A stretch of DNA of 64,000 nucleotides from Alphaproteobacteria bacterium. Its GTDB lineage: Bacteria > Pseudomonadota > Alphaproteobacteria > MPNO01 > UBA830. The DNA lies in NCBI GenBank assembly GCA_038146925.1, contig JAYQSP010000009.1, forward strand, positions 4,265 to 68,264, given 5' to 3'. The notes below the pieces were generated by a model. It did not search any database and had not been told where the DNA came from. It was given only the letters and a program-made list of their open reading frames with translations. Numbering within the stretch: the stretch's first letter is position 1; each line of letters starts with the position of its first letter. Positions 2,206-42,606 of this stretch are shown here, piece by piece. The translations under genes were made by a program, and so were the position numbers.

Positions 2206-4191
2206 GTGGCGTTAGTGGAAGGCTCGACAGCCAGACAGGCCGTCGAAGGCGCGGCAGGCGGCGTAATTGATTCCGCCATCCTCGACGCTCGACTTGATGC
2301 CGAGATCGTCGAGGCTGCGGATTCGCTGCGCGCGCGCCAGCACGAAGACGGCTACTGGGTATTCGATCTCGAAGCCGACGCGACGATCCCCGCCGAATAC
2401 ATTCTGCTGAATCATTTTCTTGGCGAACCGGAACCGGTGCTTGAAGCCAAGCTTGCCACGTATCTTCGACGAATTCAGTCCGACCGCCATGGCGGCTGGC
2501 CGCTTTTTCACGATGGCGATTTCGACATGAGTGCCAGCGTGAAGGCGTATTTCGCCCTGAAACTCGCCGGTGACGACCCAGACGCGTCGCATATGACTCG
2601 CGCGCGCGAGTCCATTCTTTCGGCCGGCGGCGCAGCGCTCTCAAACGTCTTTACGCGGATTACACTTGCCCTGTTCGGCCAGGTACCATGGCGGGCAGTC
2701 CCGGTGATGCCGGTCGGCATCATGTTGCTGCCCAAGTGGTCGCCGTTCCATATATTCAAAGTTTCCTACTGGTCGCGCACAGTGATCGCGCCGCTGCTGA
2801 TCCTGATGTCGGAAAAGCCGCAGGCCGTGAACCCGAAAGGCGTGGACATACGCGAATTATTCGTCACCCCGCCGGAGGAAGAGCGGCGGTACCTGGTAAA
2901 CCCGACCGGCGCCAAGCTCGGCTACGCCTTTCTCGCGCTCGATAAAGTGCTGCGCGTTGTCGAGCCCAAGCTGCCCGGACGCGCCCGCCGCCGCGCCATC
3001 GACGCCGCCGTCGACTTCATCACCGAACGACTGAACGGCGAAGACGGCCTGGGCGGTATTTTTCCGGCGATGGCCAACACGGTCATGGCCTTCAAGACGA
3101 TGGGCTGCGCCGACGACCACCCGGATTACGTCGTCGCGCGGCAATCCATCCGCAAACTGCTTGTCGAAGCCGATGAAGAAGCCTGGTGCCAGCCTTGTCT
3201 GTCGCCGGTATGGGACACCAGTCTCGCCATGCTCGCCCTGATGGAAGCCGGCGACCGCGACGACAGCCCACAGATCAGACGTGCTTCGGCCTGGCTGCGC
3301 GATGTCCAGATTACCGACGTCGCCGGCGACTGGGCCGATTCCCGCCCCGATGTCGCGCCCGGCGGCTGGGCGTTCCAGTTCCGCAACGATTTCTATCCCG
3401 ACGTCGACGATACCGCCGTAGTCGCGATGGCGTTGCATCGGGCACATTCGCCGGAAAACGATGTCGCGCTTCAGAAGGCGGCAGACTGGATCATCGGCAT
3501 GCAGTCGGAAAACGGCGGCTGGGGCTCATTCGATGCCGACAACACGCATTATTACCTGAATCATATTCCGTTCGCCGATCACGGCGCCCTGCTCGATCCG
3601 CCGACAGCCGATGTCTCGGCCCGGTGTCTTGCGTTCCTCGCCCAGACCGGTCACGGCAATCATCGCGCCTCGATCGAACGCGCGATAGCCTATCTGCGAA
3701 AGGAACAGGAACCCGACGGGTCCTGGTTCGGGCGATGGGGAACCAACTACATCTACGGTACCTGGTCAGTGTTGTCCGCCTTCAACGCAGCCGGCGTACC
3801 AGCGGACGACCCCGCCGTACAGAAAGCCGTGGCGTGGCTGAAATCACGCCAGCGTGCCGACGGCGGCTGGGGAGAAGACGGCGCCACCTACTGGGAAGAC
3901 CGCAAGGACGAGGTCAAGACCTCTACCGCGACGCAGACGTCCTGGGCCCTGCTCGGCCTGATGGCCGCCGGCGAAGTCGGATCCGGGGAAGTGGAAAAAG
4001 GCGTTCGCTTTCTACTCGACGCGCCGCACGCAGACGGGAAATGGGAAGAGAAGCACTACAACGCCGTCGGTTTCCCGAAGGTCTTCTATCTGCTGTATCA
4101 CGGTTACCCGGCTTATTTCCCGGTGTGGGCTCTGGCACGATATCGCAAGCTGCGCGATGGCAATGCCGCCAGCACGGAATGGGGTATGTAG
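2206..4191 (+). CDS. shc: Squalene-hopene cyclase
   Basis: 661 aa; catalytic DVDDTAVV (DXDD), QW repeats (QHEDGYW, QSENGGW, QEPDGSW, QRADGGW), GRWGTNYIYGT. Confidence 0.97.
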   Translation: MALVEGSTARQAVEGAAGGVIDSAILDARLDAEIVEAADSLRARQHEDGYWVFDLEADATIPAEYILLNHFLGEPEPVLEAKLATYLRRIQSDRHGGWPLFHDGDFDMSASVKAYFALKLAGDDPDASHMTRARESILSAGGAALSNVFTRITLALFGQVPWRAVPVMPVGIMLLPKWSPFHIFKVSYWSRTVIAPLLILMSEKPQAVNPKGVDIRELFVTPPEEERRYLVNPTGAKLGYAFLALDKVLRVVEPKLPGRARRRAIDAAVDFITERLNGEDGLGGIFPAMANTVMAFKTMGCADDHPDYVVARQSIRKLLVEADEEAWCQPCLSPVWDTSLAMLALMEAGDRDDSPQIRRASAWLRDVQITDVAGDWADSRPDVAPGGWAFQFRNDFYPDVDDTAVVAMALHRAHSPENDVALQKAADWIIGMQSENGGWGSFDADNTHYYLNHIPFADHGALLDPPTADVSARCLAFLAQTGHGNHRASIERAIAYLRKEQEPDGSWFGRWGTNYIYGTWSVLSAFNAAGVPADDPAVQKAVAWLKSRQRADGGWGEDGATYWEDRKDEVKTSTATQTSWALLGLMAAGEVGSGEVEKGVRFLLDAPHADGKWEEKHYNAVGFPKVFYLLYHGYPAYFPVWALARYRKLRDGNAASTEWGM

Positions 4192-12116: not shown

Positions 12117-12773
12117 ATGGGCAATCCCCTGACAAAAGCGTTCGCCGTCTGCGCGGCATTGTTCGCGCTCGCGGTCGCCGACACACGGTCCGCGGCGGCC
12201 GCCGGCAACGTCGTGCGCCTCGACCCGGAGAAGGCTTCACACCTGTTGAGCCTTGCGCGCATCGACGGGCGTCCGTTAACGCCGGATCTGCTTCATGGCC
12301 GCGCGGTGATCGTGTCGTTCTTCGCCAGCTGGTGTCCGCCCTGCAACACGGAATTCGAGCATCTAAACCTGCTGAACGTCACGCACGCGGCGAAAGGGCT
12401 GACCATCGTCGCGGTCAACCAGTTCGAGGATTTCACGGGGTTCGGCGACGACGGTAAGCGGCTGAACCGGTTTCTCGACCGACACCAGCCGGTCTTCTCC
12501 ATGGTCAAAGGCACCGATGAGACGGCGAAACTGTTCGGCGACGTTAAACGCATCCCGACGGTGTTCGTATTCGACCGGTCGGGTGGCGCCCGGCTCCATT
12601 TCATCCATGCAGAAGGCGCCGTGAAAACCAATCCCGGCATGGACGAGCTGCAAAAGGCGGTACGCGATGCGCTGGGCGTCAGCGCGGCCGGCACCTTCCC
12701 GTTGTTGCCCGAGTCGCCGGATTCTGTAACAAAGCCGTCACATTTCACCAAACTGGCAAAAGGCCGCTCCTGA
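12117..12773 (+). CDS. TlpA family thiol-disulfide oxidoreductase
   Basis: Signal/anchor peptide, [10 protein letters not shown] (CxxC), [10 protein letters not shown]. Confidence 0.85.
12724..12741 (+). promoter_or_regulatory. Pho-box-like direct repeat upstream of pepM
   Basis: CTGTAAC-AAAG-CCGTCAC, within the AT-richer 3' tail of the tlpA-like ORF. Confidence 0.45.
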
Positions 12774-14443
12774 TGGCGACGAATGTCGAAACCGGCGCGA
12801 TGCCGGGCAAACCCGGTTCCGCGCTCAGCAAATCCGCCCGGCTGCGTGCATTGCTGGAGGGCCCCGAACTTGGCTTTCTGATGGAGGCGCATGACGGCCT
12901 GTCGGCAAAGATTGCGGAAGAAGCCGGCTTCGAAGCCATCTGGGCGTCCGGGCTTTCGATGTCCGCCGCGCTGGGCGTGCGCGATTCCAACGAGGCCTCG
13001 TGGACCCAGGTGCTGGAAGTTCTGGAATTCATGGCCGATGCGACCGGCATCCCGATCCTGATGGACGGCGACACCGGTTACGGCAATTTCAACAATGTCC
13101 GCCGGCTGGTGATGAAGCTCTGCCAGCGCGGCATCGCCGGCGCCTGCATCGAGGACAAGCTGTTCCCGAAGACCAATTCCTTTATCGGCGACGGCCAGCC
13201 GCTGGCCGACATGGAGGAATTCTGCGGCAAGATCAAGGCCGGCAAGGACAGCCAGACCGATCCCGGCTTCGTGCTCGTCGCCCGGGTCGAGGCGCTGATT
13301 TCCGGCTGGGGACTGGACGAAGCGCTGAAGCGCGCCCACGCCTACCGGGACGCCGGCGCCGACGCCGTGCTGATCCATTCGAAGCAGTCCAGCGCCAACG
13401 AGATCATGTCCTTCATGCGCGAATGGGACGATTCCTGCCCCGTCGTGATCGTGCCGACCACCTATTACGGGACGCCGACCGACCAGTTCCGCGCCGCCGG
13501 GGTCAACGCCGTGATCTGGGCCAATCATTCGGTCCGAGCCTCCATCAGCGCCATGCGCGAAGCCGCCCGTAAGATTCACGACGAAGAAAGCGTCGTCGAC
13601 CTGGAAGACCGGATCGCCACCGTGAAGGATATCTTCCAGCTTGCCGGAAACGACGAGCTGAAAGACGCCGAAGACCGTTACCTGCCCACCGACGACGACG
13701 CGCCGCGCGGCATCGTGCTGGCCGCCACCCGCGGCAGCGCGCTGGGACCGCTGACCGAGGACAAGCCGAAATGCATGGTGGAAATTCAGGGCCAGCCCCT
13801 GCTCCGTCGCCTGACCCGGTCGCTGCGACAGTCGGGCGTGCGCGACGTCGCCGTCGTGCGCGGCTATGCCAAGGACGCCGTCGACCTGCCGAACCTGACC
13901 TATATCGACAACGACGCGTTTGAGACCACGGGCGAAGCCGCGTCGCTCGCCACGGCGATCGACCGGCTCACCGGCGACACCGTCATCGCCTATGGCGACA
14001 TTCTGTTCCGCCGCTACATTCTGGACGCGCTGGTCGAGACCGAAGGCGATATCGTGCTCGCCGTCGACGGCATGTGGCGCGAACGCACCGACCGGTCGGA
14101 AAATTCGGGCCGCGACCTGGTGCGCTGTTCCCGCCCCTTCAGCCCCAGCTTCATCGAGGACGATCCGGTCCTGTTCGAAGGCATCGTCGCGGATGCGAAC
14201 GATGCCGACGACTGCACCGGCGAATGGATCGGTATTGCGCGGCTCAGCAAGAAGGGCGCCGAACTGGTCCGCAAAGAACTCGAAGCCATGAAAAGCGACG
14301 GTACGCTGGAAACCGCCGACCTCGCCACCCTGTTCGCAAGGCTGGCCGATGCCGGTAACGCACCGCACGTGCATTACGTCGCCGGCCACTGGCTTGACGT
14401 AAACGACGCCTTCGATCTCGCCCGCGCGCGGGATTTTTTGTAG
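12773..14443 (+). CDS. pepM: Phosphoenolpyruvate mutase fused to C-terminal nucleotidyltransferase domain
   Basis: Diagnostic [10 protein letters not shown] (EDKxxxxxNS), [16 protein letters not shown]; C-terminal LAATRGSAL...KPKCM, YGDILF, WLDVND. Confidence 0.96.
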
Positions 14444-14457
14444 ACTCCTTCCCGTTC

Positions 14458-14530
14458 GTCATCCCCGCGCAGGCGGGGATCTCTCTGAATACAGAATCCT
14501 CCACAAGATTCCCGCCTGCGCGGGAATGAT
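14458..14530. repeat. REP-like inverted doublet, family A
   Basis: GTCATCCCCGCGCAGGCGGGGATCT (14458-14482) and inverted AGATTCCCGCCTGCGCGGGAATGAT (14506-14530). Confidence 0.85.
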
Positions 14531-14566
14531 GGACAAAACAGCGCGACAATCACCAGAGCCCTCACC

Positions 14567-15703
14567 ATGATCAACGCCGACGATTTCCTCTCTCCCGCCC
14601 GCGACGCCGGATACGATTTCTACACCGGTGTGCCGTGTTCGTTCCTGACAGAGATCATCAACCGGGTCATTTCGGATACGTCGCTGGACTATGTCGGCGC
14701 GGCGAGCGAGGGCGAAGCGGTAGCCATCGCATCGGGCGCCTGGCTGGCGGGACGCAAAACCGTGGTCATGTGTCAGAATTCCGGTCTCGGCAACACGGTC
14801 AATCCGCTGACGTCGCTGAACCACCCGTTCAGGATCCCCACCATGATGATCGTCACCTGGCGTGGCCAGCCCGGCATCACGGACGAACCGCAACACGAAC
14901 TGATGGGCCCGATCACCCCGGATTTGCTGGACACCATGCATATTCCGCACAGCGTATTCCCCCAGTCGGAAGACGAGATAGCGGACGCGCTGGCAGCGGC
15001 GCAGGCGAAAATGGACGAAACCGACCTGCCCTTTGCCTTTGTCATGCCGAAAGGCTCCGTCGCACCGGAGAAACTGGACGAAGCCGCCCGCGCATTGCCG
15101 CCGCGCGGCACGCTGACGGATTACACGGAAGGCGGCGAGCGTCCGACGCGCTACCGGACGCTGGAACGCCACCTGGCGCTGGTGCCGGACACCGCGGCGG
15201 TAATCGCGTCCACGGGCAAGTCCGGACGCGAGCTGTTCACCCTCGACGACCGCGACCAGCATCTCTACCAGGTCGGCTCCATGGGCTGCGCCAGCGGCAT
15301 GGCGCTCGGCGTGGCGCTGAATTCGGACCGCAAGGTCGTCGCGCTGGACGGCGACGGCGCCGTGCTGATGAAAATGGGCGCGCTGGCGACCGTCGGCGCC
15401 TATCAGCCGGATAACCTGATCCACATCGTCCTCGACAACGGCGTCCACGATTCCACGGGCGGCCAGTCCACCGTCTCCGCCTCGGTCGAATTCGCCGAGA
15501 TCGCCATTTCGTCCGGCTACGCGACAGCGGCGAAATGCGACAGCCTCGACGGGTTCGAAAAGGCCTATTCGGCGGCGCTGTCGGCAGACGGCCCGCACCT
15601 GATCCATATGCGCATCCAGCCGGGCTCGCTGAAGGAACTCGGCCGGCCGACGGTGAAGCCGCCGGAAGTAGCCCGGCGGTTCAAGGCGTTTCTGGCGGGG
15701 TAA
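14567..15703 (+). CDS. ppd: Phosphonopyruvate decarboxylase
   Basis: FYTGVPCSFL, EGEAVAIASGAWL, MCQNSGLGN.VNPL.SL, DEPQH, GSMGCAS, ThDP motif DGDGAVLMKMG..NG.HDSTGGQ. Confidence 0.95.
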   Translation: MINADDFLSPARDAGYDFYTGVPCSFLTEIINRVISDTSLDYVGAASEGEAVAIASGAWLAGRKTVVMCQNSGLGNTVNPLTSLNHPFRIPTMMIVTWRGQPGITDEPQHELMGPITPDLLDTMHIPHSVFPQSEDEIADALAAAQAKMDETDLPFAFVMPKGSVAPEKLDEAARALPPRGTLTDYTEGGERPTRYRTLERHLALVPDTAAVIASTGKSGRELFTLDDRDQHLYQVGSMGCASGMALGVALNSDRKVVALDGDGAVLMKMGALATVGAYQPDNLIHIVLDNGVHDSTGGQSTVSASVEFAEIAISSGYATAAKCDSLDGFEKAYSAALSADGPHLIHMRIQPGSLKELGRPTVKPPEVARRFKAFLAG

Positions 15704-19462: not shown

Positions 19463-19622
19463 TTCGGCACTCTTCCCGTTACGTCGGAGCATCATACTGA
19501 GGCGATGCACCGCCCTTCAACCGCGGCGAGACAACGCATTGGTTAACCGAAGTTAAACCTGTCGCCGGTAGAGTTCCGGCATTCGCGCGCGTTCCCTGCG
19601 CGCTTCAACAGAGATCGCGACC

Positions 19623-20607
19623 ATGAGCAATGCAAACGCGGCGCCAGCCGACAGCCACGACAGTTTCGACAACGCCTTCGAAGCGATAGACGATCTCGAA
19701 GCCGGGACGCTCGATTTCGAAGAGGACATCAAGGCGGTCGCAGGCGTGGCCGACCAGGTCCAGGCAATCGCGAAACAGACCAATCTGCTGGCGCTGAATG
19801 CCACGATCGAAGCGGCGCGCGCGGGCGATGCCGGCAAAGGATTCGCCGTCGTCGCCGCCGAAGTGAAACAGCTGTCGGACGAAACCCGCAAGGCCACCGA
19901 CCAGATCGGCGCGACGCTGAAATCGCTGACCGCCAAGCTGGAACAGTTCGTGGCGAGAACCGAAACTGCGCGCAAATCCATCGAACACGCCCAGGACCGG
20001 TCGGGCAGCCCGGTCGGGATCGTTTCCGATACGCCGGCGCAAGAGCCCGCCGCCGCGGCGCGGATTTCCGAAGCGCCGCCCCGGGTCGAAACCGCCGCAG
20101 CGCCGGAACCGCCGCCCCCCCGCCGCGCCCGAAACCGTGCCCGAACCTGCCGCCCCCGCGAAGCCGGCACAGGCGGCCGGTCCGTGTCCGGATCTTCCCA
20201 TCTCCACCGGCGACATCAAACATGTGCAGCAGAGCTTTATCGCCATCGGCCTCGATTCCGCCGAAACGGCAGACATGTTCTACGGGCGTCTATTCGAAAC
20301 CCATCCGGATCTGGAAAGCCGCTTTACCGGCGAAATGAAAGAATACGGCCACCAGCCGATCGAAATCATGCAGGTGATGGTCGCCGGTATCCTGAGCAAC
20401 GAATCCGTCCTGCCGGTGGTTCGGGAACTGGGCAACCGGTACCGGGAATACGGCGTGGAAGTAGGCGATTATGCGGCCGTGGCAGAAGCGCTGATGTGGA
20501 CGCTGGAGCAGAAGCTTGGCGACAGGTTCACGCCGGATATCCGCAATGCCCGGGTGAACTTCTATGCCCTTATCGCGGAATCGATGATCAAGGGTCCGGT
20601 GACGTAG
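19623..20607 (+). pseudogene. Frameshifted soluble MCP signalling domain - Pro/Ala linker - C-terminal globin
   Basis: [28 protein letters not shown]; globin VQQSF....[13 protein letters not shown]...YGV..L.WTLE in +1 frame; removing one C from the C7 run at 20115-20121 joins them. Confidence 0.8.
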
Positions 20608-20613
20608 ACCGAT

Positions 20614-21855
20614 TCATTCTTCGTCCTGTTCCGGCCCGCGAGGATCCATCAGTGCCGCCGCAGGACCTGCGCGGGCAAGCGCGACGAAGGCTGTTTTGTC
20701 GTCCGGAGAAACGGGCGGCTGCCCGATGAGCCGATAAAGCGAGAATGCGCCGATCGCCAGAAAGACCGCTCCGATAAAGGCATAGAGCGCCCGCACATCG
20801 GTCAGTTCCATCAGCAGCCCCGATACCAGCGGGCCGATCACCGCGCCGACCGCATATACCAGCAGCAGACTGGCGCTCAACGACACGATATCGGTTTTGT
20901 CCGTACAGTCGTTCGCATGCGAAACCGCGAGGGAATAGACGGCAAACGACCAGCCGCCGTACCCGATGGCAAACAGATAGAACGTCATCGCGTCGGCCCG
21001 GTACGTCAAAAAGACGATTACAGCGGCCAGTACCGTGCTTAACAACGCGACCACGAAGATAACCAGACGACGGTCGTAGCGGTCTGACACCCAGCCGATC
21101 GGCCATTGCAGAATCAATCCGCCGAATATCGTGCAGGTCATGAATATCGCCGTGCCGTTTTCTCCCAGCCCTGCCTCGGTGGTGAAGACCGGCGTCAGCG
21201 ACCAGAAGGCCCCCTGTCCCATGCCGACGCCGAAACAGGCGACAAGCCCGAGCGGAGAGATCAACCAAAGCCGCCGAATGCCCAGCCGGGTATAGGATTC
21301 CAGAACGGGTTGCGGACTGCTGGAAATCGACAACGGTACCGCCGCGAGAGAAATCAGGATCGAGACGCCGCAGAACAGAACAAACCCGGATGAATCCGCG
21401 GTCAGCAGCAACAGCTGGCCGAAACCAAGCGCGCCGAGATTGACCATCATGTAGATGGCGAAGATTCGTCCCCGCGATTCCGCGGTTGCCCGGTCGTTCA
21501 GCCAGCTTTCGATCACCATGTACAACCCGGCGAAACAGAAGCCCGCGATCCCGCGCAACAATGCCCAGAAGATCTCGTCGACCATCATGATGTGGGCCAG
21601 GGATGCCGCGGACGCGATGGCCGTCAGCGCCGCATAGGTCCGGATATGGCCGACATTCTGAACCAGCCGCGGGCAGCCCAGACAACCGAGCAGAAAACCC
21701 AGATAGTAGGCGCCCATGATGAGCCCGATCGCGCTGGAGGAAAATCCCTCGCCGATGCCGCGTATCGCCAGCAACGTCGCATACAGGCCGCTGCCAAGCA
21801 GCAGCAGAGCTGTGCCCAGCAGCAGGGCGGAGACGGGAAGGACGAAGGACCGCAT
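20614..21855 (-). CDS. MFS transporter (YcaD-like)
   Basis: [53 protein letters not shown]. Confidence 0.9.
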
Positions 21856-21895: not shown

Positions 21896-23002
21896 TCACG
21901 GCGTCGCGCCCATTTCCTGCATCACATCGGACACCGCCGCGACGGCCGCGCGCATGTCGTCGGGAAACACCTGTCCGATGCAGCCGATCCGGAACGAATC
22001 CGCTTTCGTCAGTTTGCCCGGATAAATCGTAAAACCTCGCGTTTGCAGCCCGGTGTAGAACCGGTTGAAATCGAATGCAGGGTCGTCCGGCATATCGAAC
22101 GTGACGATGATCGGCGCCTGCAGGTTATGAGACAGATAGGTGCGAAAGCCGAGCGCCGTCATACCATCGACCAGAACGTCGCAGTTTTCCCGGTAACGTG
22201 CGTGCCGGCCGGCAACGCCGCCCTCCTCGTCCAGTTGTTCGAGCGCGGCATCCAGCGCGGCGACGACATGCGTCGGCGGGGTGAATCGCCATTCGCCGGA
22301 TTTTTCGAATCCCGCGGCCTGGGCATGGAGATCGAGCACCACGGACGGCGCGTTTCCCGCCGACGCCGCGAGGATTTCATGTCGCGCGACGACAAAGGCG
22401 ATTCCGGGCACGCCCTCCAGACATTTGTTCGATGACGCGATCAGCACGTCGACCGGCGTCGCATTGACGTCGACCGGTATGCCGCCGAACGAGCTCATTG
22501 CGTCCACGATCAGGGAACGTCCGGCCTTCTGAACGGTCTCCGCTATTTCCGCAAGCGGGTTGAGGATGCCCGACGTGGTTTCGCAATGAACCATGGCGAC
22601 GTGGGTGATGGTGACGTCGGCATCCAGCAGTCTGCCCAGTTCGGCGGGATCGGGCGGCACATTCTCCGGCGTCTCGTAAACCGTCACCCGGCGGCCCAGC
22701 GTTTCGGCGATTGTTCCCATGCGATGGCAATACGCGCCATTCGCCGGGATCAGGACATGACCGTCCGGCGGAATGAACGTCGCCGCCGCCGCTTCCAGCC
22801 CGAATGTTCCGCTGCCCTGCAACAGCACGCAGGCGTGGGTCTCGGCGCCGCCCGCGATAGCGGCGATCCGTTCTCGGACACGGCGCGTCAGATTGATAAA
22901 GGCGGGATCGCGGGACCCCCAGTCGCGCAGCATTGCGGCGCGCGTACGCTCCGACGTTGTCAGCGGTCCGGGGGTCAGGAGAATCTGGGGCTTGTCAGAC
23001 AT
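21896..23002 (-). CDS. phnW: 2-aminoethylphosphonate--pyruvate transaminase
   Basis: LLTPGPLTTS..RAAML.DWGSRD, QGSGTF..EAA, HCETTSGILNP, DAMSSFG, PLP lysine SSNKCLEGVPG, WRFTPPTH, IYPGKLT. Confidence 0.95.
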   Translation of the reverse strand: MSDKPQILLTPGPLTTSERTRAAMLRDWGSRDPAFINLTRRVRERIAAIAGGAETHACVLLQGSGTFGLEAAAATFIPPDGHVLIPANGAYCHRMGTIAETLGRRVTVYETPENVPPDPAELGRLLDADVTITHVAMVHCETTSGILNPLAEIAETVQKAGRSLIVDAMSSFGGIPVDVNATPVDVLIASSNKCLEGVPGIAFVVARHEILAASAGNAPSVVLDLHAQAAGFEKSGEWRFTPPTHVVAALDAALEQLDEEGGVAGRHARYRENCDVLVDGMTALGFRTYLSHNLQAPIIVTFDMPDDPAFDFNRFYTGLQTRGFTIYPGKLTKADSFRIGCIGQVFPDDMRAAVAAVSDVMQEMGATP

Positions 23003-23069
23003 GGAGAATATTTAGATCAATTCCTTCGGCGTCGCAGAATCTTTTCGTAGTCCCGGCGCCGACATAAAG

Positions 23070-23114
23070 TGGGACAAATCCCAATATTGACTATTGCAAA
23101 AATATTGGGACAAT
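23070..23114. promoter_or_regulatory. Inverted-repeat operator overlapping a sigma70-like promoter
   Basis: TCCCAATATT (23079-23088) N12 AATATTGGGA (23101-23110); TGGGACAA repeated at 23070 and 23106; TTGACT-N16-GACAAT. Confidence 0.6.
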
Positions 23115-23146
23115 TGAACATTCGAAGCAAGTCAAAGGTGGGGCGA

Positions 23147-24553
23147 ATGACCGAACATGCCGAACTGATTGCGCGAATTGAATCTTACTGCCGCGGCGCC
23201 GAGATCGCGGAATCCACATTCGGACGACGCGCGGTCAACGATGGGAAATTCGTCGGCAGGTTGCGGGAAGGCAAAAGGGTGACCACGGCGACAATCGGCC
23301 GGGTGGAAAAATTCCTGGACGATCATGCGGCCGATGGGGATGAAACAGAGACATACGACCCCCGCATGAGTGCGGGAGCAAAACCAGCCACCGAGACGAA
23401 AGCGCCCGCGGATGCGAACGGCGGGGGCGAAGACAAGACCCATTTCCGGTTTTACGACAACCGCCAGAAATATCTGCTGTTCGTGAACACCTGCTCGGAG
23501 AAATGGGCCGTCGCCGACCGGGTTGGGCAGGAACTTAACCGGCTGCAGGTCCGGCCGCCCTCCCTTCGCGTTTTCGATGCGGGGATGGGGGATGGCACGG
23601 TCCTGACCCGCGTCATGCGGCACATGCACAAGCTGTATCCCACCGTGCCGTTTTACGTGGTCGGCAAGGAAATCAGCCTCGAAGACGTACGCCTGACGCT
23701 GGAAAAACTGCCCGACCGGTTCAACGAACATCCTGCCATGGTCGTCGTGATCACCAACATGTTCTACGCGGAAGCACCGTCGCTGATGCCGCGCGCGCCG
23801 GAAAACGCCGCCCGCCTGAACTGGCGCGAAGTCGCGCTGGACGGCAATTCGGCGCACGAGTTCGAGGAACAGATCGCGGCGCTGGAGCCGGAGATCGCCG
23901 ACGGATGGCAAGTCCGCACCAGCGAGAAGACCGGCAATCCGCTTTATGTCCGCCCTTCGGTGATGATCCTCTATCGCGGCGATCACAAGCTGCTGCTCGA
24001 CAACATCATCCCGCGTCCCGGCCTGTCGGTGAAAGACTACAACCTGATCATCGCGTCGCAGCCGTTCCGCCTGCGGGCATCGCTGGATCTGAAGGTGAAA
24101 CGCGTACTCGCACCGCTCGCCCGCGCACTGGCGCCCGGCGGCCGCATGCTGACGATCCATTCCCACGGCAACGATCCCGGTATCGAGATCATCAGACGGG
24201 TGTGGCCGGACGAGGACCCGTTCCAGCACAACCGCCAGGCCTTGCTGCAGGCGCTCAAGAAGGAACTCGGCCGCGACGGGCGCGACCTTAATTTCACCGC
24301 CGCCGCCGACAAGCGCGCCCTGTTCCGCTATGTGATGCATACGCTGCCCACGGAGATCGGCTCGTCCATCGGAACGTCTACCCTGATGGCTGCATGGAAT
24401 GCCGCCGTTTACGTCGCTCAGATCGAGGACGACCGCCTCGAAGCGGCCATGGCTGACAACAGCTATCTGCAGGCCACGAGCGACGTTCTGAAGGAATACA
24501 ACGGCCTCTGGTTCAACGACGAATCGTTCGTCGTCTCGCGGCGGCGCGACTGA
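23147..24553 (+). CDS. Small HTH domain fused to class I SAM-dependent methyltransferase-like domain
   Basis: N-terminal IESYC......STFGRRAVNDGKFV.RLR.G...T..T..RV..F; motif I VFDAGMGDG; start refined to MTEHA. Confidence 0.75.
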   Translation: MTEHAELIARIESYCRGAEIAESTFGRRAVNDGKFVGRLREGKRVTTATIGRVEKFLDDHAADGDETETYDPRMSAGAKPATETKAPADANGGGEDKTHFRFYDNRQKYLLFVNTCSEKWAVADRVGQELNRLQVRPPSLRVFDAGMGDGTVLTRVMRHMHKLYPTVPFYVVGKEISLEDVRLTLEKLPDRFNEHPAMVVVITNMFYAEAPSLMPRAPENAARLNWREVALDGNSAHEFEEQIAALEPEIADGWQVRTSEKTGNPLYVRPSVMILYRGDHKLLLDNIIPRPGLSVKDYNLIIASQPFRLRASLDLKVKRVLAPLARALAPGGRMLTIHSHGNDPGIEIIRRVWPDEDPFQHNRQALLQALKKELGRDGRDLNFTAAADKRALFRYVMHTLPTEIGSSIGTSTLMAAWNAAVYVAQIEDDRLEAAMADNSYLQATSDVLKEYNGLWFNDESFVVSRRRD

Positions 24554-38373: not shown

Positions 38374-38886
38374 ATGGCATTTATCTGGAAAGCCTATAAC
38401 GGGCTGATCATCGGGCTGGCCATTGTGGGCGGGCTGATGCTTGCGCTTATTTTCGTGGGCATCGTTGCGGACGTGACGATGCGCACCCTGGGTTTCAACT
38501 CGATACAATGGTACAGCGCCATTGCCGAATACTGTCTGCTGTTCTCGACCATGTTCGGCGCGCCGTGGCTCGTTCGACTGAAAGGGCACGTGGTCGTCGA
38601 ATCTCTGACCATGGCACTGCCGGAGCTGATGAGAAAGCTGATGGCAAAACTGGTCTACCTTCTCTGCATCCTGCTATCGCTCCTTTTCGTTTATTTCGGC
38701 TGGATCGAAATGGTTGGCGCCATCAGTTCCGGCGAGCTCGACCTCCGGTCGATCGACATGCCGAAATGGATCCTCTTCGTGCCGTTCCCTCTCGGATTTT
38801 CGCTGGTGGCAATTGAGTTCGGCCGCTACCTACTGGGCTTCGATTCATACTATTCCGGCAAGGTCGGTTCCGGGGAGTCGCTCTGA
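38374..38886 (+). CDS. dctQ: TRAP transporter small permease DctQ
   Basis: 4 TM segments; E..LL..TMFGAPW.....GHV.VE, P.W......P.G. Confidence 0.9.
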   Translation: MAFIWKAYNGLIIGLAIVGGLMLALIFVGIVADVTMRTLGFNSIQWYSAIAEYCLLFSTMFGAPWLVRLKGHVVVESLTMALPELMRKLMAKLVYLLCILLSLLFVYFGWIEMVGAISSGELDLRSIDMPKWILFVPFPLGFSLVAIEFGRYLLGFDSYYSGKVGSGESL

Positions 38887-40232
38887 TGGAAATCCTCACC
38901 GAGTGGTATTCGGTTGCCGGGTTCCTCGTCGGCATGGTCATCGGGTTGATGCTGCTGGGAATCCCCGTCGCTTTCGCCTTTCTGGCCGCGAATATTATCG
39001 GCGCCATCGTCTTCATGGGTGACGGCACGATCATGGGGGGGCTGGCGGCAATGCCGCAGATCGTCGTCAACGCCGTCGAGGCGGTGACGATCTTCGCCCT
39101 GATCCCTGTGCCGCTGTTTATAATCATGGGCGAACTGTTTTTTCATACCGGCCTAGCCGTTCGCGTGTTCGACACGCTTGAACTCTGCTTCGGTCGCCTG
39201 CCCGGGCGGCTGTCCTACATTACCGTCGCCGGCGGCACGATCTTCGCGACCCTGTCGGGATCCACTATGGCGAATACCGCGATGATGGGATCCCTGATGG
39301 TTCCGGAAATGACACGGCGCGGGTACAAGGGCCACATGTCGATGGGGCCGATACTCGGCACGGGCGGGCTGGCGATGATCATTCCGCCCTCGGCGCTCGC
39401 CGTGCTGCTGGCCAGCCTTGCCGAAATCGATATCGGCAAGCTGCTGATCGCGGGCGTTCTGCCCGGTCTTGTTCTCGCCGTTCTGTACTCGATCCTGATC
39501 TACGTACAGGTCAAGATCGACCCGGAAGCCGCGCCCGAATACCAGGTGGAGTCCCATACTTTCGGCCAGGTGATGAAATCGGTGGTCGTGAACGTCCTGC
39601 CGATGAGCCTTGTCGTTTTCTGCGTCATCGGACTGATCATCCTGGGTGTCGCAACGCCGACCGAGGCTGCCGGTTTCGGTGCCCTGGGTGTCGTTGTTCT
39701 TGCCCTGGTATACCGGGTTCTTACGTGGGACATCCTGGTAAAATCGTTCTCGGGATCGCTGCGCGTCACCGCGATGGTGCTGCTGATCATCCTGGCGTCA
39801 TCGACCTTCAGCCAGTTGCTCGCCTTTACCGGTGCCAGCGCCGGGCTCATCGAATGGGCCACGCAGGTGGAACTGGCGCCGCTCGTCATGCTTCTGATCA
39901 TGTTCGCGGTGCTGCTGGTCCTCGGCATGTTCATGGATCAGGTGTCGATGATGCTGCTGACAGTGCCGATTTTCTTCCCGCTGGCGACGACGTTGCAGTT
40001 CGACCTGATCTGGTTCGGGCTCGTCATGCTTCTGGCGCTGGAAATCAGCCTGACCACCCCTCCGTTCGGACTGCTGCTGTTCGTCATGATGGGCGTCGCG
40101 CCGCAGGGCACGACGCTGTGGCAGGTCGCCAAGGCGGCCGCGCCCTATATCGGCTGCGCGCTGGTCGTTCTCGTGCTGCTGATAATCTTCCCCGAGCTCG
40201 GAACCTATCTGCCGAGCCTGATGGAGAAATAG
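38886..40232 (+). CDS. dctM: TRAP transporter large permease DctM
   Basis: P.PLFIIMGE, FATLSGST.A, GGLAMIIPPS, PTEAA, TPPFGL.LFV; TGATG coupling. Confidence 0.95.
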   Translation: MEILTEWYSVAGFLVGMVIGLMLLGIPVAFAFLAANIIGAIVFMGDGTIMGGLAAMPQIVVNAVEAVTIFALIPVPLFIIMGELFFHTGLAVRVFDTLELCFGRLPGRLSYITVAGGTIFATLSGSTMANTAMMGSLMVPEMTRRGYKGHMSMGPILGTGGLAMIIPPSALAVLLASLAEIDIGKLLIAGVLPGLVLAVLYSILIYVQVKIDPEAAPEYQVESHTFGQVMKSVVVNVLPMSLVVFCVIGLIILGVATPTEAAGFGALGVVVLALVYRVLTWDILVKSFSGSLRVTAMVLLIILASSTFSQLLAFTGASAGLIEWATQVELAPLVMLLIMFAVLLVLGMFMDQVSMMLLTVPIFFPLATTLQFDLIWFGLVMLLALEISLTTPPFGLLLFVMMGVAPQGTTLWQVAKAAAPYIGCALVVLVLLIIFPELGTYLPSLMEK

Positions 40233-40236
40233 ACAC

Positions 40237-42606
40237 ATGGACGGTTCCGCCCGCGCTCCCGGCGCCGCCGACACCGCGATCGGCGCGTCGCCCGCCCGCC
40301 TGATGGCCCGGCGCGCCGTCGAAGGCAAAGGACGCCATGTCGACGACTTCACACTCTCCCGCACGGTAGAGGTCGCCTATGTGCGCAGCCCCTACGCGCA
40401 CGCCAACATCGGCGAAATAGAAACTTCGGCAGCAGCCGCGGTGCCCGGGGTGATCGCCGTCGTCACGGGGCGCGAGATCGCGGAGCGTATGACGCCGTGG
40501 ACCGGGATCATGGAAAACCAGCCGGCGTTGAAGTCGGTGCCGCAATACGCGCTTGCCGTCGATCGCGCCACCTGGCAGGGAGAACCCGTGGTCGCTGTCG
40601 TCGCCGAGACCCGCGCCATCGCGGAGGACGCGGCAGAACTCGTCGCCGTCGACTGGACGGAAAAAACCGCCATAGCCGACATGCTTACCGCCCTCGACCC
40701 CGAAACGCCGGTGCTGCATCCGGAACTGGGCGACAACAAGATGTACGAACGCGTTGCCGAAAAGGGCGACGTCGGCGCCGGATTCGCCGCCGCCGCGCAT
40801 GTCGTCGAAGGCACGTTCGATTTCGGCCGCCACACCGGCGTGACGCTGGAACCGCGCGTCATGACGTCGTCCTGGGATTCGTCGGAAAAGCAGCTGACAG
40901 TTTATTACGGCGGCCAGGCCGTTCACATGATCCAGGTCCTGTTTTCGAAGCACCTGGGCATCCCGGAACGCGACATTCGCGTCATCGCGCAGGACTGCGG
41001 CGGCTCCTACGGCATTAAGAGCCATTTGTACGGCGACGAATTCGCCACCGCCGTGCTGTCGATCATGCTGGACCGGCCGGTGCGCTACCGCGCCGACCGG
41101 ATGGAATCCTTCGTCTCCGACATTCACGCCCGCCAGCACCGGCTGACCGGTAAAATGGGCATAGATTCGGAAGGCAGGATCGTCGCCTTCGAATTCGACG
41201 ACATCACCGCCGCCGGCGCCTATTCCGCCTACCCGCGCACCAGCTGCGTCGAGGCCAACCAGGTGCTCAATATCGCGGGCGGGCCCTACAACATCGAAAA
41301 TTTCCGGGCCAGGACGACGGTGGTTTTCCAGAACATGGTACCGACATCGCAATACCGCGCCGTCGGCCATCCGATGGGCATCGTTATCTGCGACAGCCTG
41401 CTCGACAAGGCCGCCGTCGCCGCCGGGATAGACCGGATGGAGATCCGCCGGCGCAATCTGATTTCCGACGAGGCTTATCCGGCCGCCTCGCCGGCCGGCA
41501 TCCCGCTGCACGATCTGTCGCACCAGGCGTGTCTCGAAAAGCTGACCAGGGTGATCGACGTCGACGCGCTGAAGGCGGATCAGACCGCCGCCCGCGAACG
41601 GGGCATACATCGCGGCATCGGCTACGCGTCCTTTATCAAGGGCACCAATCCCGGGGCACTGATCTACGGCCCCGCCAAAGTGCCGATCTCCGCGCAGGAC
41701 GGCACCACGGTACGGCTGGAGCCGGCAGGCGGCGTCACCGTACTGACCGGCGTCACCGAACAGGGCCAGGGCACAGAAACCGCGCTGGCGCAGGTCGTCG
41801 CAGCCGCAATCGGTCTCAGGTTCGAAGACGTGCGTGTCATCACCGGCGACACCAACGCCGTGCCGTATGGCGGCGGCACGTACGGCTCGCGCGGCGCCGG
41901 AATCGGCGGCGAAGCGTCGTGGAAAGCCGGCCAGACCTTGCGCAGCCAGATTCTCGAACTCGCAGCCGTCCTGCTGCAGACCGATGCGGACAGCCTCGAC
42001 ATCCGGAACAGCGTCGTGGTCGATGCCGACGGCGGTGGCGAACGCATCACGCTGGAAGAGCTTGGCAACATCGCATTCCTGCGGTCCTACGAACTGCCCG
42101 ACGATTATCACCCTGTGCTGGTCGCGACCGAACGCTTCCGGGTGCGCGACTACATCTTCACCAATGCCGCACACGCCGCCTATGTTGAGGTCGATCCCGA
42201 CACCGGCATCGTAAAGGTGCTGAATTACTGGGTGGTGGAAGATTGCGGCCGGGTCATCAATCCGCAACTGGTCGCCGAACAGCAGCGCGGGTCGGTCGTA
42301 CACGGTCTCGGCGACGCGCTCTATGAACACTGTCTCTACGACCGGGACGGCCAGTTGCAGAATGCCACCATGGCGGATTATCTGGTGCCGATGTCGGGCG
42401 AATCCCCCGATATCGTGATCGAACACGTCTCCACACCCACGTCTAAAACCACGCTGGGCGCGAAGGGCGCGGGGGAAAGCGGCATGGCGGGCGTTCCGCA
42501 ATCCATCCTCAGTGCCGTGAACGATGCGATCCGGCCTTTCGGCGGCGAGGTGTCCGCCGTACCGGTCACGCCGGAAGACGTATTGCGGGCAACAGGCCGT
42601 CTATAG
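40237..42606 (+). CDS. Xanthine dehydrogenase family molybdopterin-binding large subunit (no adjacent small or medium subunit)
   Basis: RSPYAHA.I, GGSYGIK, QYRAVGHP, EQGQG..T, GG.YGSR, EDCG..INP, GAKGAGESG. Confidence 0.93.
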   Translation: MDGSARAPGAADTAIGASPARLMARRAVEGKGRHVDDFTLSRTVEVAYVRSPYAHANIGEIETSAAAAVPGVIAVVTGREIAERMTPWTGIMENQPALKSVPQYALAVDRATWQGEPVVAVVAETRAIAEDAAELVAVDWTEKTAIADMLTALDPETPVLHPELGDNKMYERVAEKGDVGAGFAAAAHVVEGTFDFGRHTGVTLEPRVMTSSWDSSEKQLTVYYGGQAVHMIQVLFSKHLGIPERDIRVIAQDCGGSYGIKSHLYGDEFATAVLSIMLDRPVRYRADRMESFVSDIHARQHRLTGKMGIDSEGRIVAFEFDDITAAGAYSAYPRTSCVEANQVLNIAGGPYNIENFRARTTVVFQNMVPTSQYRAVGHPMGIVICDSLLDKAAVAAGIDRMEIRRRNLISDEAYPAASPAGIPLHDLSHQACLEKLTRVIDVDALKADQTAARERGIHRGIGYASFIKGTNPGALIYGPAKVPISAQDGTTVRLEPAGGVTVLTGVTEQGQGTETALAQVVAAAIGLRFEDVRVITGDTNAVPYGGGTYGSRGAGIGGEASWKAGQTLRSQILELAAVLLQTDADSLDIRNSVVVDADGGGERITLEELGNIAFLRSYELPDDYHPVLVATERFRVRDYIFTNAAHAAYVEVDPDTGIVKVLNYWVVEDCGRVINPQLVAEQQRGSVVHGLGDALYEHCLYDRDGQLQNATMADYLVPMSGESPDIVIEHVSTPTSKTTLGAKGAGESGMAGVPQSILSAVNDAIRPFGGEVSAVPVTPEDVLRATGRL

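What the first reader, a model, noticed from the sequence alone, without database searches (positions are those of the whole stretch)
19623..20607. Inverted HemAT architecture: mini-MCP with a C-terminal globin, split at a C7 tract, proximal His replaced by Tyr
Seen: a roughly 120-aa MCP hairpin tip, a Pro/Ala linker and a globin, in frame only if C7 (20115-20121) were C6 (about 327 aa). The globin reads [10 protein letters not shown] where homologues have LG.RH..YGV, and ARVNFY where AW..AY is expected. Established: HemAT-type sensors place the globin N-terminally. Inference: either a novel soluble O2/NO chemoreceptor layout, possibly switchable by slippage, or a decaying pseudogene; the H-to-Y and W-to-R changes favour decay.
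Basis: partly seen in the sequence, partly recalled or inferred. Interest (0 to 1): 0.7.

Follow-up and report, generated by a model that had tools for sequence, protein, structure and literature searches.

The report
Frameshifted tip-only chemoreceptor–globin fusion gene
The window holds a naturally broken copy of a gene that, when intact, joins the kinase-binding tip of a chemoreceptor to a globin whose heme-binding histidine has become tyrosine; the protein family is widespread in marine bacteria, and I found no paper describing it.

Summary
Window 19623-20607 reads as one 327-aa protein only if the C7 tract (20115-20121) is C6. The protein has an MCP signalling-tip hairpin (aa 11-127), a disordered Pro/Ala tether and a C-terminal globin.

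The layout is real. At least about 110 clusters of intact MCPsignal+Globin proteins exist, including a 97%-identical 327-aa one that reads C6.

It is not an inverted HemAT. The globin belongs to the myoglobin-like family (PF00042; closest to Hell's Gate globins and neuroglobin), not the sensor/protoglobin family. The MCP part is only the CheA/CheW-binding tip.

Tyr at the proximal-His position is not decay. It is fixed in a syntenic clade whose globin is under strong purifying selection (dN/dS 0.06-0.13).

Decay is real, but only within the window's own species-level population:
- C6 dominates, in 15 of 19 metagenome runs.
- C7, C8, a 10-bp duplication, a 10-bp deletion and a 13-bp deletion all occur, and only inside this gene. 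Flanks have almost no indels.
- Substitutions are 3.5 times denser in the gene than in the flanks, with dN/dS about 0.7.
- A nearly invariant Trp has become Arg.
- One allele pairs the 13-bp deletion with the 10-bp duplication and is back in frame.

Function is inferred: a tethered globin sensor that docks on chemoreceptor arrays.

The parts
19623..20607 (+). Whole gene (985 nt in the window, 984 nt when intact): a 327-aa MCP-tip / tether / globin protein, broken here by a +1 frameshift
   Evidence: The intact 97%-identical P0001/L081 sits in the same neighbourhood.
19653..20003 (+). MCP signalling-tip coiled coil, aa 11-127. It corresponds to Tsr 333-449 and has no HAMP, methylation helices or transmembrane segment. 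The hairpin turn AGDAG (aa 67-71) is at 19821-19835.
   Evidence: Pfam PF00015, profile positions 16-121 of 172. Aligns to Tm14 56-143, Tsr 342-438 and the 85-90-aa Tm14 tip fragments 3UR1/4JPB. About 40 invariant columns across the family.
19750..19759 (+). Site of a 10-bp deletion allele (CCGACCAGGT) that truncates the protein at 54 aa
   Evidence: L083 (=L100), L084 and L101.
19997..20018 (+). Two 9-bp direct repeats, CCGGTCGGG, 13 bp apart. One unit (19997-20009) is deleted in several alleles.
   Evidence: L098, L099 and L102. P0097 shows the same shift.
20004..20190 (+). Pro/Ala-rich disordered tether, aa 128-189
   Evidence: AlphaFold pLDDT 33-39. Sequence not conserved; dN/dS 0.17-0.45. 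In L099 about 40 aa of it are read in another frame while the ORF stays intact.
20115..20121 (+). C7 tract: the frameshift of this window. Intact alleles have C6.
   Evidence: C6 in 15 of 19 runs. C7 also in X10 and L101; C8 in P0015.
20118..20127 (+). 10-bp unit CCCCGCCGCG, tandemly duplicated in several alleles
   Evidence: X7, X19, X20, L082, L085, L089 and L099.
20191..20607 (+). Globin domain, aa 190-327, plus stop codon. It is in frame +1 relative to the ATG in this window.
   Evidence: PF00042. Foldseek hit to 3S1I with target TM 0.90. phmmer hits 3WFW 8e-15 and 3UBC 2e-13.
20440..20442 (+). Tyr273 codon (TAC) at the proximal-His (F8) position
20551..20553 (+). Arg310 codon (CGG) replacing a nearly invariant H-helix Trp. 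Position 20551 is a C/T polymorphism in the population.
   Evidence: T (Trp) in L081, L083, L090, L091 and L099. Column tally.
20122..20729 (+). Out-of-frame read-through tail of the frame-0 ORF. It is a nonsense peptide that overlaps the convergent MFS gene.

Best explanation
The window carries a naturally occurring +1 frameshift allele (C7 instead of C6) of a gene that normally encodes a 327-aa soluble protein.

The protein has three parts:
1. The kinase-control tip of a methyl-accepting chemotaxis protein: a coiled-coil hairpin with about 58 residues per arm, and no adaptation region.
2. A disordered Pro/Ala tether of about 60 aa.
3. A C-terminal 3-on-3 globin of the myoglobin-like family.

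What is shown:
- The architecture.
- A large family of intact homologues in marine Alphaproteobacteria.
- Synteny of the Tyr-type and His-type orthologues.
- Purifying selection on the Tyr-type globin.
- A cluster of independent indel alleles confined to this gene in the window's species.

What is inferred:
- The tip dimerises and docks on CheA/CheW in receptor arrays.
- The tethered globin modulates that docking or oligomerisation according to its ligand state. Coupling would be by proximity or occlusion rather than by helix motions, because the tether is disordered and the domain order and globin number vary in the family.
- In the window's clade the pocket was remodelled (F8 His->Tyr, E7 Gln->Tyr/Phe, a new His two residues later). 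The cofactor is therefore probably ferric heme with tyrosinate ligation, or a different ligand, and the protein would not be a reversible O2 binder.
- In the window's own species the gene has recently lost constraint and is being inactivated repeatedly. This copy makes no fusion protein, apart from possible trace +1 slippage at CCC-C.
For: Architecture:
- Domains and frames.
- The disordered tether and the globin fold.
- The tip matches the Tm14 fragment crystallised with CheA/CheW (PDB 3UR1, 4JPB) and Tsr 342-438.

Family:
- Nearly all of the 120 best hits carry PF00015+PF00042 at about 320 aa. P0001 is 97% identical and intact.
- MCP-globin-globin and globin-globin-MCP variants exist.
- Orthologues share the AMP-binding / MFS / Aminotran_5 neighbourhood.

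Selection:
- Within the Tyr clade, globin dN/dS is 0.06-0.13 at dS 0.8-1.4.
- Between the Tyr and His clades, globin dN is 0.42-0.48 against 0.13-0.17 for the MCP part.
- F8 is His in 406 of 419 domains. Tyr occurs in 11, of which 10 are this clade.

Population:
- C6 in 15 of 19 runs, the 10-bp duplication in 3, C7 in 1.
- Further alleles: 10-bp deletion, 13-bp deletion, C8, double hits, and one compensated allele (-13 +10) with an intact 326-aa ORF.
- All of these indels lie in the 985-bp gene. About 58 kb of aligned flank holds only one del/ins pair.
- Substitutions run at 5.3 per kb in the gene against 1.5 per kb in the flanks.
- Window versus L081: 11 nonsynonymous to 5 synonymous changes, while the flanking MFS has 4 changes in 1242 nt and the aminotransferase 0 in 1107 nt.
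- The gene's words occur in salt-marsh metatranscriptome contigs.
Against: - No experiment or paper supports CheA/CheW binding or heme binding for any member.
- AlphaFold drew aa 11-127 as one straight helix, not a hairpin. This was a monomer model from 33 sequences with pLDDT about 75.
- The gene is not next to che genes in any locus seen.
- Only assembler contigs were available, not raw reads, so allele frequencies within samples are unknown.
- The window's own C7 could still be a consensus error.
- The intact allele dominates most samples and a compensated allele exists. Both argue that the gene is not simply neutral.
- The dN/dS of 0.72 rests on 16 changes.
Confidence: 0.7

Rival explanations
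1. The C7 is a homopolymer error of sequencing or assembly in the window's source. The organism has the intact C6 gene and nothing is broken.
For: C6 is the dominant state in 15 of 19 runs. The lesion is a single base in a homopolymer in 62%-GC DNA. The exact 368-aa frame-0 product is not on record elsewhere.
Against: C7 is also found in an independent Logan contig (X10, depth 16, a different haplotype at 20218 and 20407) and in JGI contig L101. Five other indel types, recovered by different assemblers in different studies, hit the same gene. The window also carries derived changes at conserved residues.
Confidence: 0.12
2. The linker is a contingency (phase-variation) locus. Slippage at the C tract and the neighbouring short repeats switches the fusion protein on and off, and second-site indels switch it back on.
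For: C6, C7 and C8 all exist. C7 occurs on at least two haplotypes. The 10-bp duplication and 13-bp deletion sit at direct repeats. L099 combines them and is in frame. Indels are confined to this gene.
Against: The tract is only 6 long and is absent from sister species, which have C5 or less at other positions. The 10-bp deletion in the MCP domain is not readily reversible. Substitution density and dN/dS look like relaxed constraint rather than a maintained switch. Contigs show one dominant allele per sample, not mixtures.
Confidence: 0.13
3. The split is functional. The organism makes a free mini-MCP and a free 156-aa globin from two ORFs.
For: A 156-aa globin-only ORF (GTG 20137) is called in many assemblies (P0196, 16 member sequences).
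Against: There is no Shine-Dalgarno-like sequence before GTG 20137. The frame-0 ORF reads through the whole globin to 20729. Other alleles break the gene at different places, including inside the MCP domain. All sister species keep the fusion.
Confidence: 0.03
4. It is a HemAT-like aerotaxis receptor with swapped domain order that senses O2 by reversible binding to ferrous heme.
For: It combines a globin with an MCP signalling sequence in a soluble protein. His-type relatives keep the proximal His, B10 Tyr and E7 Gln.
Against: In this clade F8 is Tyr and E7 is Tyr or Phe. The globin is not of the sensor family. There are no methylation helices or rigid connector.
Confidence: 0.1

Closest known systems
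HemAT and other globin-coupled sensors (B. subtilis, H. salinarum, Atu1027)
   Same: A soluble protein that combines a globin with an MCP signalling sequence. It is presumably read out by CheA/CheW.
   Different: - Known members have an N-terminal sensor-family globin (reviews and papers). Here the globin is C-terminal and M-family (PF00042), with no Protoglobin match.
- HemAT has a full-length signalling domain. Here there is only about 115 aa of tip.
- The connector here is disordered.
- The proximal residue is Tyr, not His.
Hell's Gate globin I and HGbRL globin domain of Methylacidiphilum infernorum (PDB 3S1I/3UBC, 3WFW); neuroglobin
   Same: These are the closest solved globins by sequence (E 8e-15 and 2e-13) and by fold (target TM 0.90). 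By its PDB title, HGbRL is likewise an M-family globin fused to a signalling-type domain (Roadblock/LC7).
   Different: Those proteins have His at F8. From my own knowledge, HGbI has Gln at E7; the alignment puts Tyr241 there. The partner domain and domain order also differ.
Tm14 tip fragment in the CheA-CheW-receptor ternary complexes (PDB 3UR1, 4JPB)
   Same: aa 34-100 align end to end with the 85-90-aa fragment (E 1e-16). A hairpin of this size is therefore known to be enough to bind the kinase and coupling protein (own knowledge of those structures).
   Different: Those are laboratory truncations of a 213-aa-plus receptor. Here the truncation is the natural protein, and it carries a tethered globin.
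Haemoglobin M variants with F8 His->Tyr (Hb M Iwate, Hb M Hyde Park; own knowledge)
   Same: The same residue change at the same position of the globin fold. In those variants the iron is held ferric by tyrosinate.
   Different: Those are rare pathological human mutants. Here Tyr is fixed in a bacterial clade under purifying selection, with accompanying pocket changes.
Homopolymer contingency loci of Campylobacter, Neisseria and Haemophilus (own knowledge)
   Same: A G/C homopolymer inside a coding region, with length variants in natural populations that switch the reading frame.
   Different: The tract is short (6) and not conserved in sister species. It is accompanied by non-homopolymer indels and near-neutral substitution.

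Membership tests
Globin-coupled sensor / HemAT | Sensor globin at the N-terminus, output domain at the C-terminus | tested here: not met
   MCPsignal is at aa 13-125 and Globin at aa 219-320.
Globin-coupled sensor / HemAT | Globin of the sensor (protoglobin-like, PF11563) family | tested here: not met
   Only PF00042 matched at E<=1. The nearest PDB sequences are HGbRL, HGbI, neuroglobin, Vgb and flavohaemoglobins.
Globin-coupled sensor / HemAT | Proximal His that ligates heme | tested here: not met
   Tyr273 aligns with the proximal His.
Methyl-accepting chemotaxis protein (PF00015) | Match to the signalling-domain profile above Pfam's gathering score, with a conserved hairpin tip | tested here: met
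   88.3 bits against a cut-off of 34.6. The tip motif is invariant in the family.
Methyl-accepting chemotaxis protein (PF00015) | Full cytoplasmic bundle with methylation helices (24-44 heptads per arm; own knowledge of the Alexander-Zhulin classes) | tested here: not met
   Only profile positions 16-121 of 172 are matched. The helix spans aa 11-127, about 8 heptads per arm, equivalent to Tsr 333-449.
Methyl-accepting chemotaxis protein (PF00015) | Binds CheA/CheW and controls kinase activity | not testable with these tools
   Inferred only from the alignment to the 3UR1/4JPB fragment.
M-family (myoglobin-like) bacterial single-domain globin | 3-on-3 globin fold and a PF00042 match | tested here: met
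   27.8 bits against a cut-off of 22. Target TM 0.90 to 3S1I.
M-family (myoglobin-like) bacterial single-domain globin | His F8, with Tyr B10 and Gln E7 in the pocket | tested here: not met
   F8 is Tyr and E7 is Tyr (Phe in P0001). B10 Tyr and CD1 Phe are kept.
M-family (myoglobin-like) bacterial single-domain globin | Binds heme | not testable with these tools
Purifying selection on the pocket shows that some function is kept.
Phase-variable contingency locus | Repeat-length variants in the population that change the reading frame | tested here: met
   C6, C7 and C8.
Phase-variable contingency locus | A long repeat tract maintained across related strains or species | tested here: not met
   The wild type is C6. 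Sister species L092-L095 have no tract at this site.
Pseudogene (recent, polymorphic) | Disrupted reading frame relative to intact orthologues | tested here: met
Pseudogene (recent, polymorphic) | Relaxed constraint: several independent lesions and dN/dS near 1 | tested here: inconclusive
   At least 5 indel types occur only in this gene, and SNP density is 3.5 times that of the flanks. However, dN/dS of 0.72 rests on 16 changes, the intact allele dominates, and one allele is compensated.

The most novel reading that the evidence does not exclude
Tip-only MCP-globin fusions are a distinct class of array-docking sensors that couple through a disordered tether. Within it, the Tyr-F8 clade uses a tyrosinate-ligated (ferric) heme to sense something other than O2. 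In this species the repeat-rich tether acts as a multi-site slippage switch, in which frameshifts turn the fusion off and second-site indels restore it (as in L099).
Probability: 0.12. Interest if true: 0.8.

Novelty: new variant of a known kind. Interest (0 to 1): 0.58.

Why it matters
Reviews of aerotaxis and globin-coupled sensors list only N-terminal sensor-type globins on full-length receptors. This is a populous but unstudied alternative: a myoglobin-type globin tethered to nothing more than the CheA/CheW-binding tip.

It offers three things:
- If it docks on arrays, it is a natural minimal system for asking how kinase control can work without helix-borne signals or methylation.
- The Tyr-F8 clade is a rare natural test of what a globin does when the proximal His is replaced.
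- The population data give a clean example of a gene losing constraint in the wild. All indels fall inside one 985-bp gene, including a compensated double frameshift that a disordered linker tolerates.

Tried and rejected
- **Genome-contig scan.** It returned only ordinary MCPs, so it gave no named species for the family. The organism is known only as an uncultured marine alphaproteobacterium, from neighbour proteins named Rhodospirillaceae or Alphaproteobacteria bacterium MAGs.
- **Exact look-up of the 368-aa frame-0 ORF.** Nothing was on record.
- **Word-indexed search with the globin alone.** It scored only 26 candidates. It was useful mainly for showing that globin-only ORF calls (P0196) are common.
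- **Exhaustive HMMER search.** The best 150 included no separate representative of the Tyr clade and, apart from P0306, no other Tyr-F8 globin. It did reveal multi-globin giants.
- **AlphaFold monomer.** It did not fold the tip into a hairpin. I do not read this as evidence against a hairpin.
- **Six literature searches.** They found no paper on MCP-tip plus C-terminal globin proteins, nor on natural proximal-Tyr globins.
- **Promoter/terminator scan.** Nothing was found on the + strand.
- **Assembler artefact as a cause of the 10-13-bp indels.** Considered and rejected. The flanking homologies are 2-9 bp, far below k-mer size, and the same indels recur with different assemblers and studies.

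Full report
**1. The observation**

- ATG 19623 opens frame 0, which encodes a canonical chemoreceptor tip (…[34 protein letters not shown]…) followed by a Pro/Ala-rich stretch.
- A globin lies in frame +1 and ends at the stop codon 20605-20607.
- Deleting one C of the C7 run at 20115-20121 joins the two into a 327-aa ORF.
- As the window stands, frame 0 does not stop. It reads on to 20729, giving 368 aa, of which about 200 are nonsense.
- Pfam finds MCPsignal at aa 13-125 (88.3 bits) and Globin PF00042 at aa 219-320 (27.8 bits, above the cut-off). There is no Protoglobin match.
- The best non-MCP NCBIfam hit is the globin part of flavohaemoprotein.

**2. Intact relatives and the place of the shift**

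- A search with the repaired protein returned a large family. Almost all of the 120 best clusters carry PF00015+PF00042 and are about 300-340 aa. Some are longer forms of 420-570 aa.
- P0001 is 327 aa and 97% identical, and reads [12 protein letters not shown], which is exactly the C6 reading. Its contig L081 has the same neighbours as the window (MFS, class-V aminotransferase).
- The layout is therefore real and the intact state is C6.
- Variants with MCP-globin-globin (P0073) and globin-globin-MCP (P0111) exist, so domain order and globin number are not fixed in the family.

**3. What the parts are**

- *MCP part.* It aligns to Thermotoga Tm14 residues 56-143 and to Tsr 342-438. It also aligns end to end with the 85-90-aa Tm14 tip fragments of PDB 3UR1 and 4JPB. 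From my own knowledge, those are the receptor pieces crystallised with CheA and CheW.
- *Size of the MCP part.* The predicted helix covers aa 11-127. That is about 58 residues per arm around the AGDAG turn, equivalent to Tsr 333-449. It has the tip and flexible bundle but no methylation helices, HAMP or membrane segment.
- *AlphaFold model.* It drew the helix as one straight helix rather than a hairpin (monomer, 33 sequences, pLDDT about 75). It gave pLDDT 33-39 for aa 129-189 and 77-90 for the globin.
- *Globin.* It superposes on Hell's Gate globin I (3S1I, target TM 0.90) and on neuroglobins. By sequence it is closest to the HGbRL globin 3WFW (E 8e-15) and to HGbI 3UBC/3S1I (2e-13).
- *Family assignment.* It is a myoglobin-like (M-family) globin, not the sensor type of HemAT.

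**4. The Tyr at the proximal position**

- Tyr273 aligns with the proximal His of 3WFW and 3UBC (…RRHvkYGV…).
- In 419 globin domains from the family and from the 150 best library representatives, this column is His 406 times and Tyr 11 times. Ten of the Tyr cases are the window's own clade, and the other is the standalone globin P0306.
- The clade (the window, P0001-P0006, P0085; 70-97% identical) also changed three other pocket positions:
  - the residue aligned with HGbI's distal Gln, to Tyr or Phe;
  - the residue two places later, where it gained a His;
  - the His at the start of the G helix, to Asp.
- The clade kept the B10 Tyr and the CD1 Phe.
- The Tyr-type gene (L092) and a His-type gene (L095-L097, 56% identical) lie in the same neighbourhood of AMP-binding enzyme, MFS, class-V aminotransferase and MTHFR, with PEP mutase nearby. 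They are therefore orthologues.
- Nei-Gojobori estimates:
  - Within the Tyr clade, globin dN/dS is 0.06-0.13 at dS 0.8-1.4. The MCP part gives 0.04-0.11.
  - Between the Tyr and His clades, globin dN is 0.42-0.48 against 0.13-0.17 for the MCP part.
- The pattern is a burst of change in the globin followed by strong constraint. That is remodelling, not decay.
- What the remodelled pocket binds is unknown. From knowledge of Hb M and of tyrosinate heme proteins, I expect ferric heme that does not bind O2 reversibly, or possibly a non-heme ligand.

**5. The frameshift in its population**

*Runs surveyed.* The region occurs in salt-marsh, estuary and seawater metagenomes. Only assembler contigs, not raw reads, were available.

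| State in the Logan contigs | Runs |
|---|---|
| C6, no other indel in the part examined | 15 of 19 |
| C6 plus a 10-bp tandem duplication next to the tract | 3 (three different studies) |
| C7 | 1 (X10, a haplotype different from the window's) |

- For 14 of the 15 C6 runs the part examined was 19560-20300 or more. X17 was checked only downstream of 19950.

*Contigs from JGI, ENA and Logan that carry the same neighbours* add further alleles:
- a 10-bp deletion inside the MCP domain (19750-19759), which truncates the protein at 54 aa;
- a 13-bp deletion between two 9-bp direct repeats (19997-20018);
- the 10-bp deletion together with C7 (L101);
- the 13-bp deletion together with the 10-bp duplication (L099). 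The net change is -3, giving an intact 326-aa ORF in which about 40 aa of tether are read in another frame.

*Protein records* show C8 (P0015) and other double lesions (P0013, P0022, P0097).

*Comparison with the flanks* (15 loci aligned to the window):
- Every one of these indels lies in the 985-bp gene.
- About 58 kb of flank holds a single del/ins pair.
- Substitutions run at 5.3 per kb in the gene and 1.5 per kb in the flanks.

*Window versus L081*:
- The gene has 16 changes, 11 of them nonsynonymous (ratio 0.72).
- The adjacent MFS gene has 4 changes in 1242 nt.
- The aminotransferase has 0 changes in 1107 nt.

*Arg310.* It replaces a Trp that is otherwise almost invariant. It is one state of a C/T polymorphism at 20551 and is the derived state.

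*Other points.*
- The C6 tract itself is absent from sister species.
- The gene's words occur in salt-marsh metatranscriptome contigs, which suggests that it is transcribed.

**6. Interpretation**

- The simplest reading is that an old, conserved gene has recently lost constraint in this species-level population. It is being hit repeatedly at slippage-prone repeats of its GC-rich tether, and the window carries one such allele.
- A pure assembly error is unlikely but not excluded for this particular copy.
- A true phase-variation switch is not excluded either. C7 recurs on two haplotypes and a compensated allele exists. However, the short non-conserved tract, the irreversible lesions and the near-neutral substitution pattern all argue against it.
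- The mechanism for the intact protein is inference from the anatomy. It would dock on arrays through the tip, with control by a tethered globin through proximity or oligomerisation.

**7. Comparison with what is known**

- Papers and a 2026 review describe only N-terminal sensor globins on full receptors.
- Six full-text searches found nothing on this architecture or on natural proximal-Tyr globins.
- Databases label members only as 'globin domain-containing protein', 'hemoglobin-like flavoprotein' or 'methyl-accepting chemotaxis protein'.
- I file it as a new variant of a known kind (heme-sensor chemoreceptors), not as a HemAT. Three defining features of HemAT were tested and not met.

Noticed in passing
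Proteins P0207-P0209, P0212, P0215; not in the window: The exhaustive search with the globin found giant proteins made of many tandem globin domains. P0207, for example, is 2461 aa with 14 matched globin stretches, and others are 1000-2350 aa with 6-12.
   Followed up: no
window 12773-15703 and 21896-23002: The gene sits inside what looks like a phosphonate-biosynthesis neighbourhood: a PEP mutase fused to an NTP transferase, a TPP-dependent decarboxylase, and a class-V aminotransferase that JGI names 2-aminoethylphosphonate-pyruvate transaminase. The neighbourhood is kept in the His-type orthologue's locus.
   Followed up: partly
L099 (JGI Ga0181575_10055101), gene from locus position 269 on the reverse strand: A double frameshift (-13 bp and +10 bp, about 110 nt apart) leaves an intact 326-aa ORF. 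Its tether changes from acidic Pro/Ala-rich to Arg/Pro-rich. This allele carries the ancestral Trp310 and Gly301.
   Followed up: partly
P0306 (153 aa) and P0070 (315 aa): These are independent losses of the proximal His among relatives. P0306 is a standalone globin with Tyr at F8 and Cys at B10. P0070 is an MCP-globin with Leu at F8.
   Followed up: no
window 23069-24553 (+), 494 aa: A long ORF with no Pfam family. A gene of 463-468 aa with no Pfam hit on record occupies the matching position in related loci (L082-L088, L095-L097), between the aminotransferase and the MTHFR gene.
   Followed up: no
window 40237-42606 and 51948-54329: Two paralogous large subunits of the molybdenum hydroxylase / CO dehydrogenase type, by the names of cluster members. 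A squalene-hopene cyclase lies at 2206-4191.
   Followed up: no
L083 (JGI Ga0181577_10002042) 1854-2960: In this contig the neighbouring aminotransferase is also called as two pieces (294 + 65 aa), although no indel relative to the window was found there. A nonsense substitution is likely.
   Followed up: no
window 39035-39041: The only other G/C homopolymer of 7 in the window (G7). It lies inside the 448-aa ORF 38886-40232, which is open across it.
   Followed up: no
Runs X8, X12, X16, X17 around window 19773-19833 and 20103-20208: The Logan contigs break into short overlapping pieces at these spots. This suggests that more than one allele coexists within a sample.
   Followed up: no
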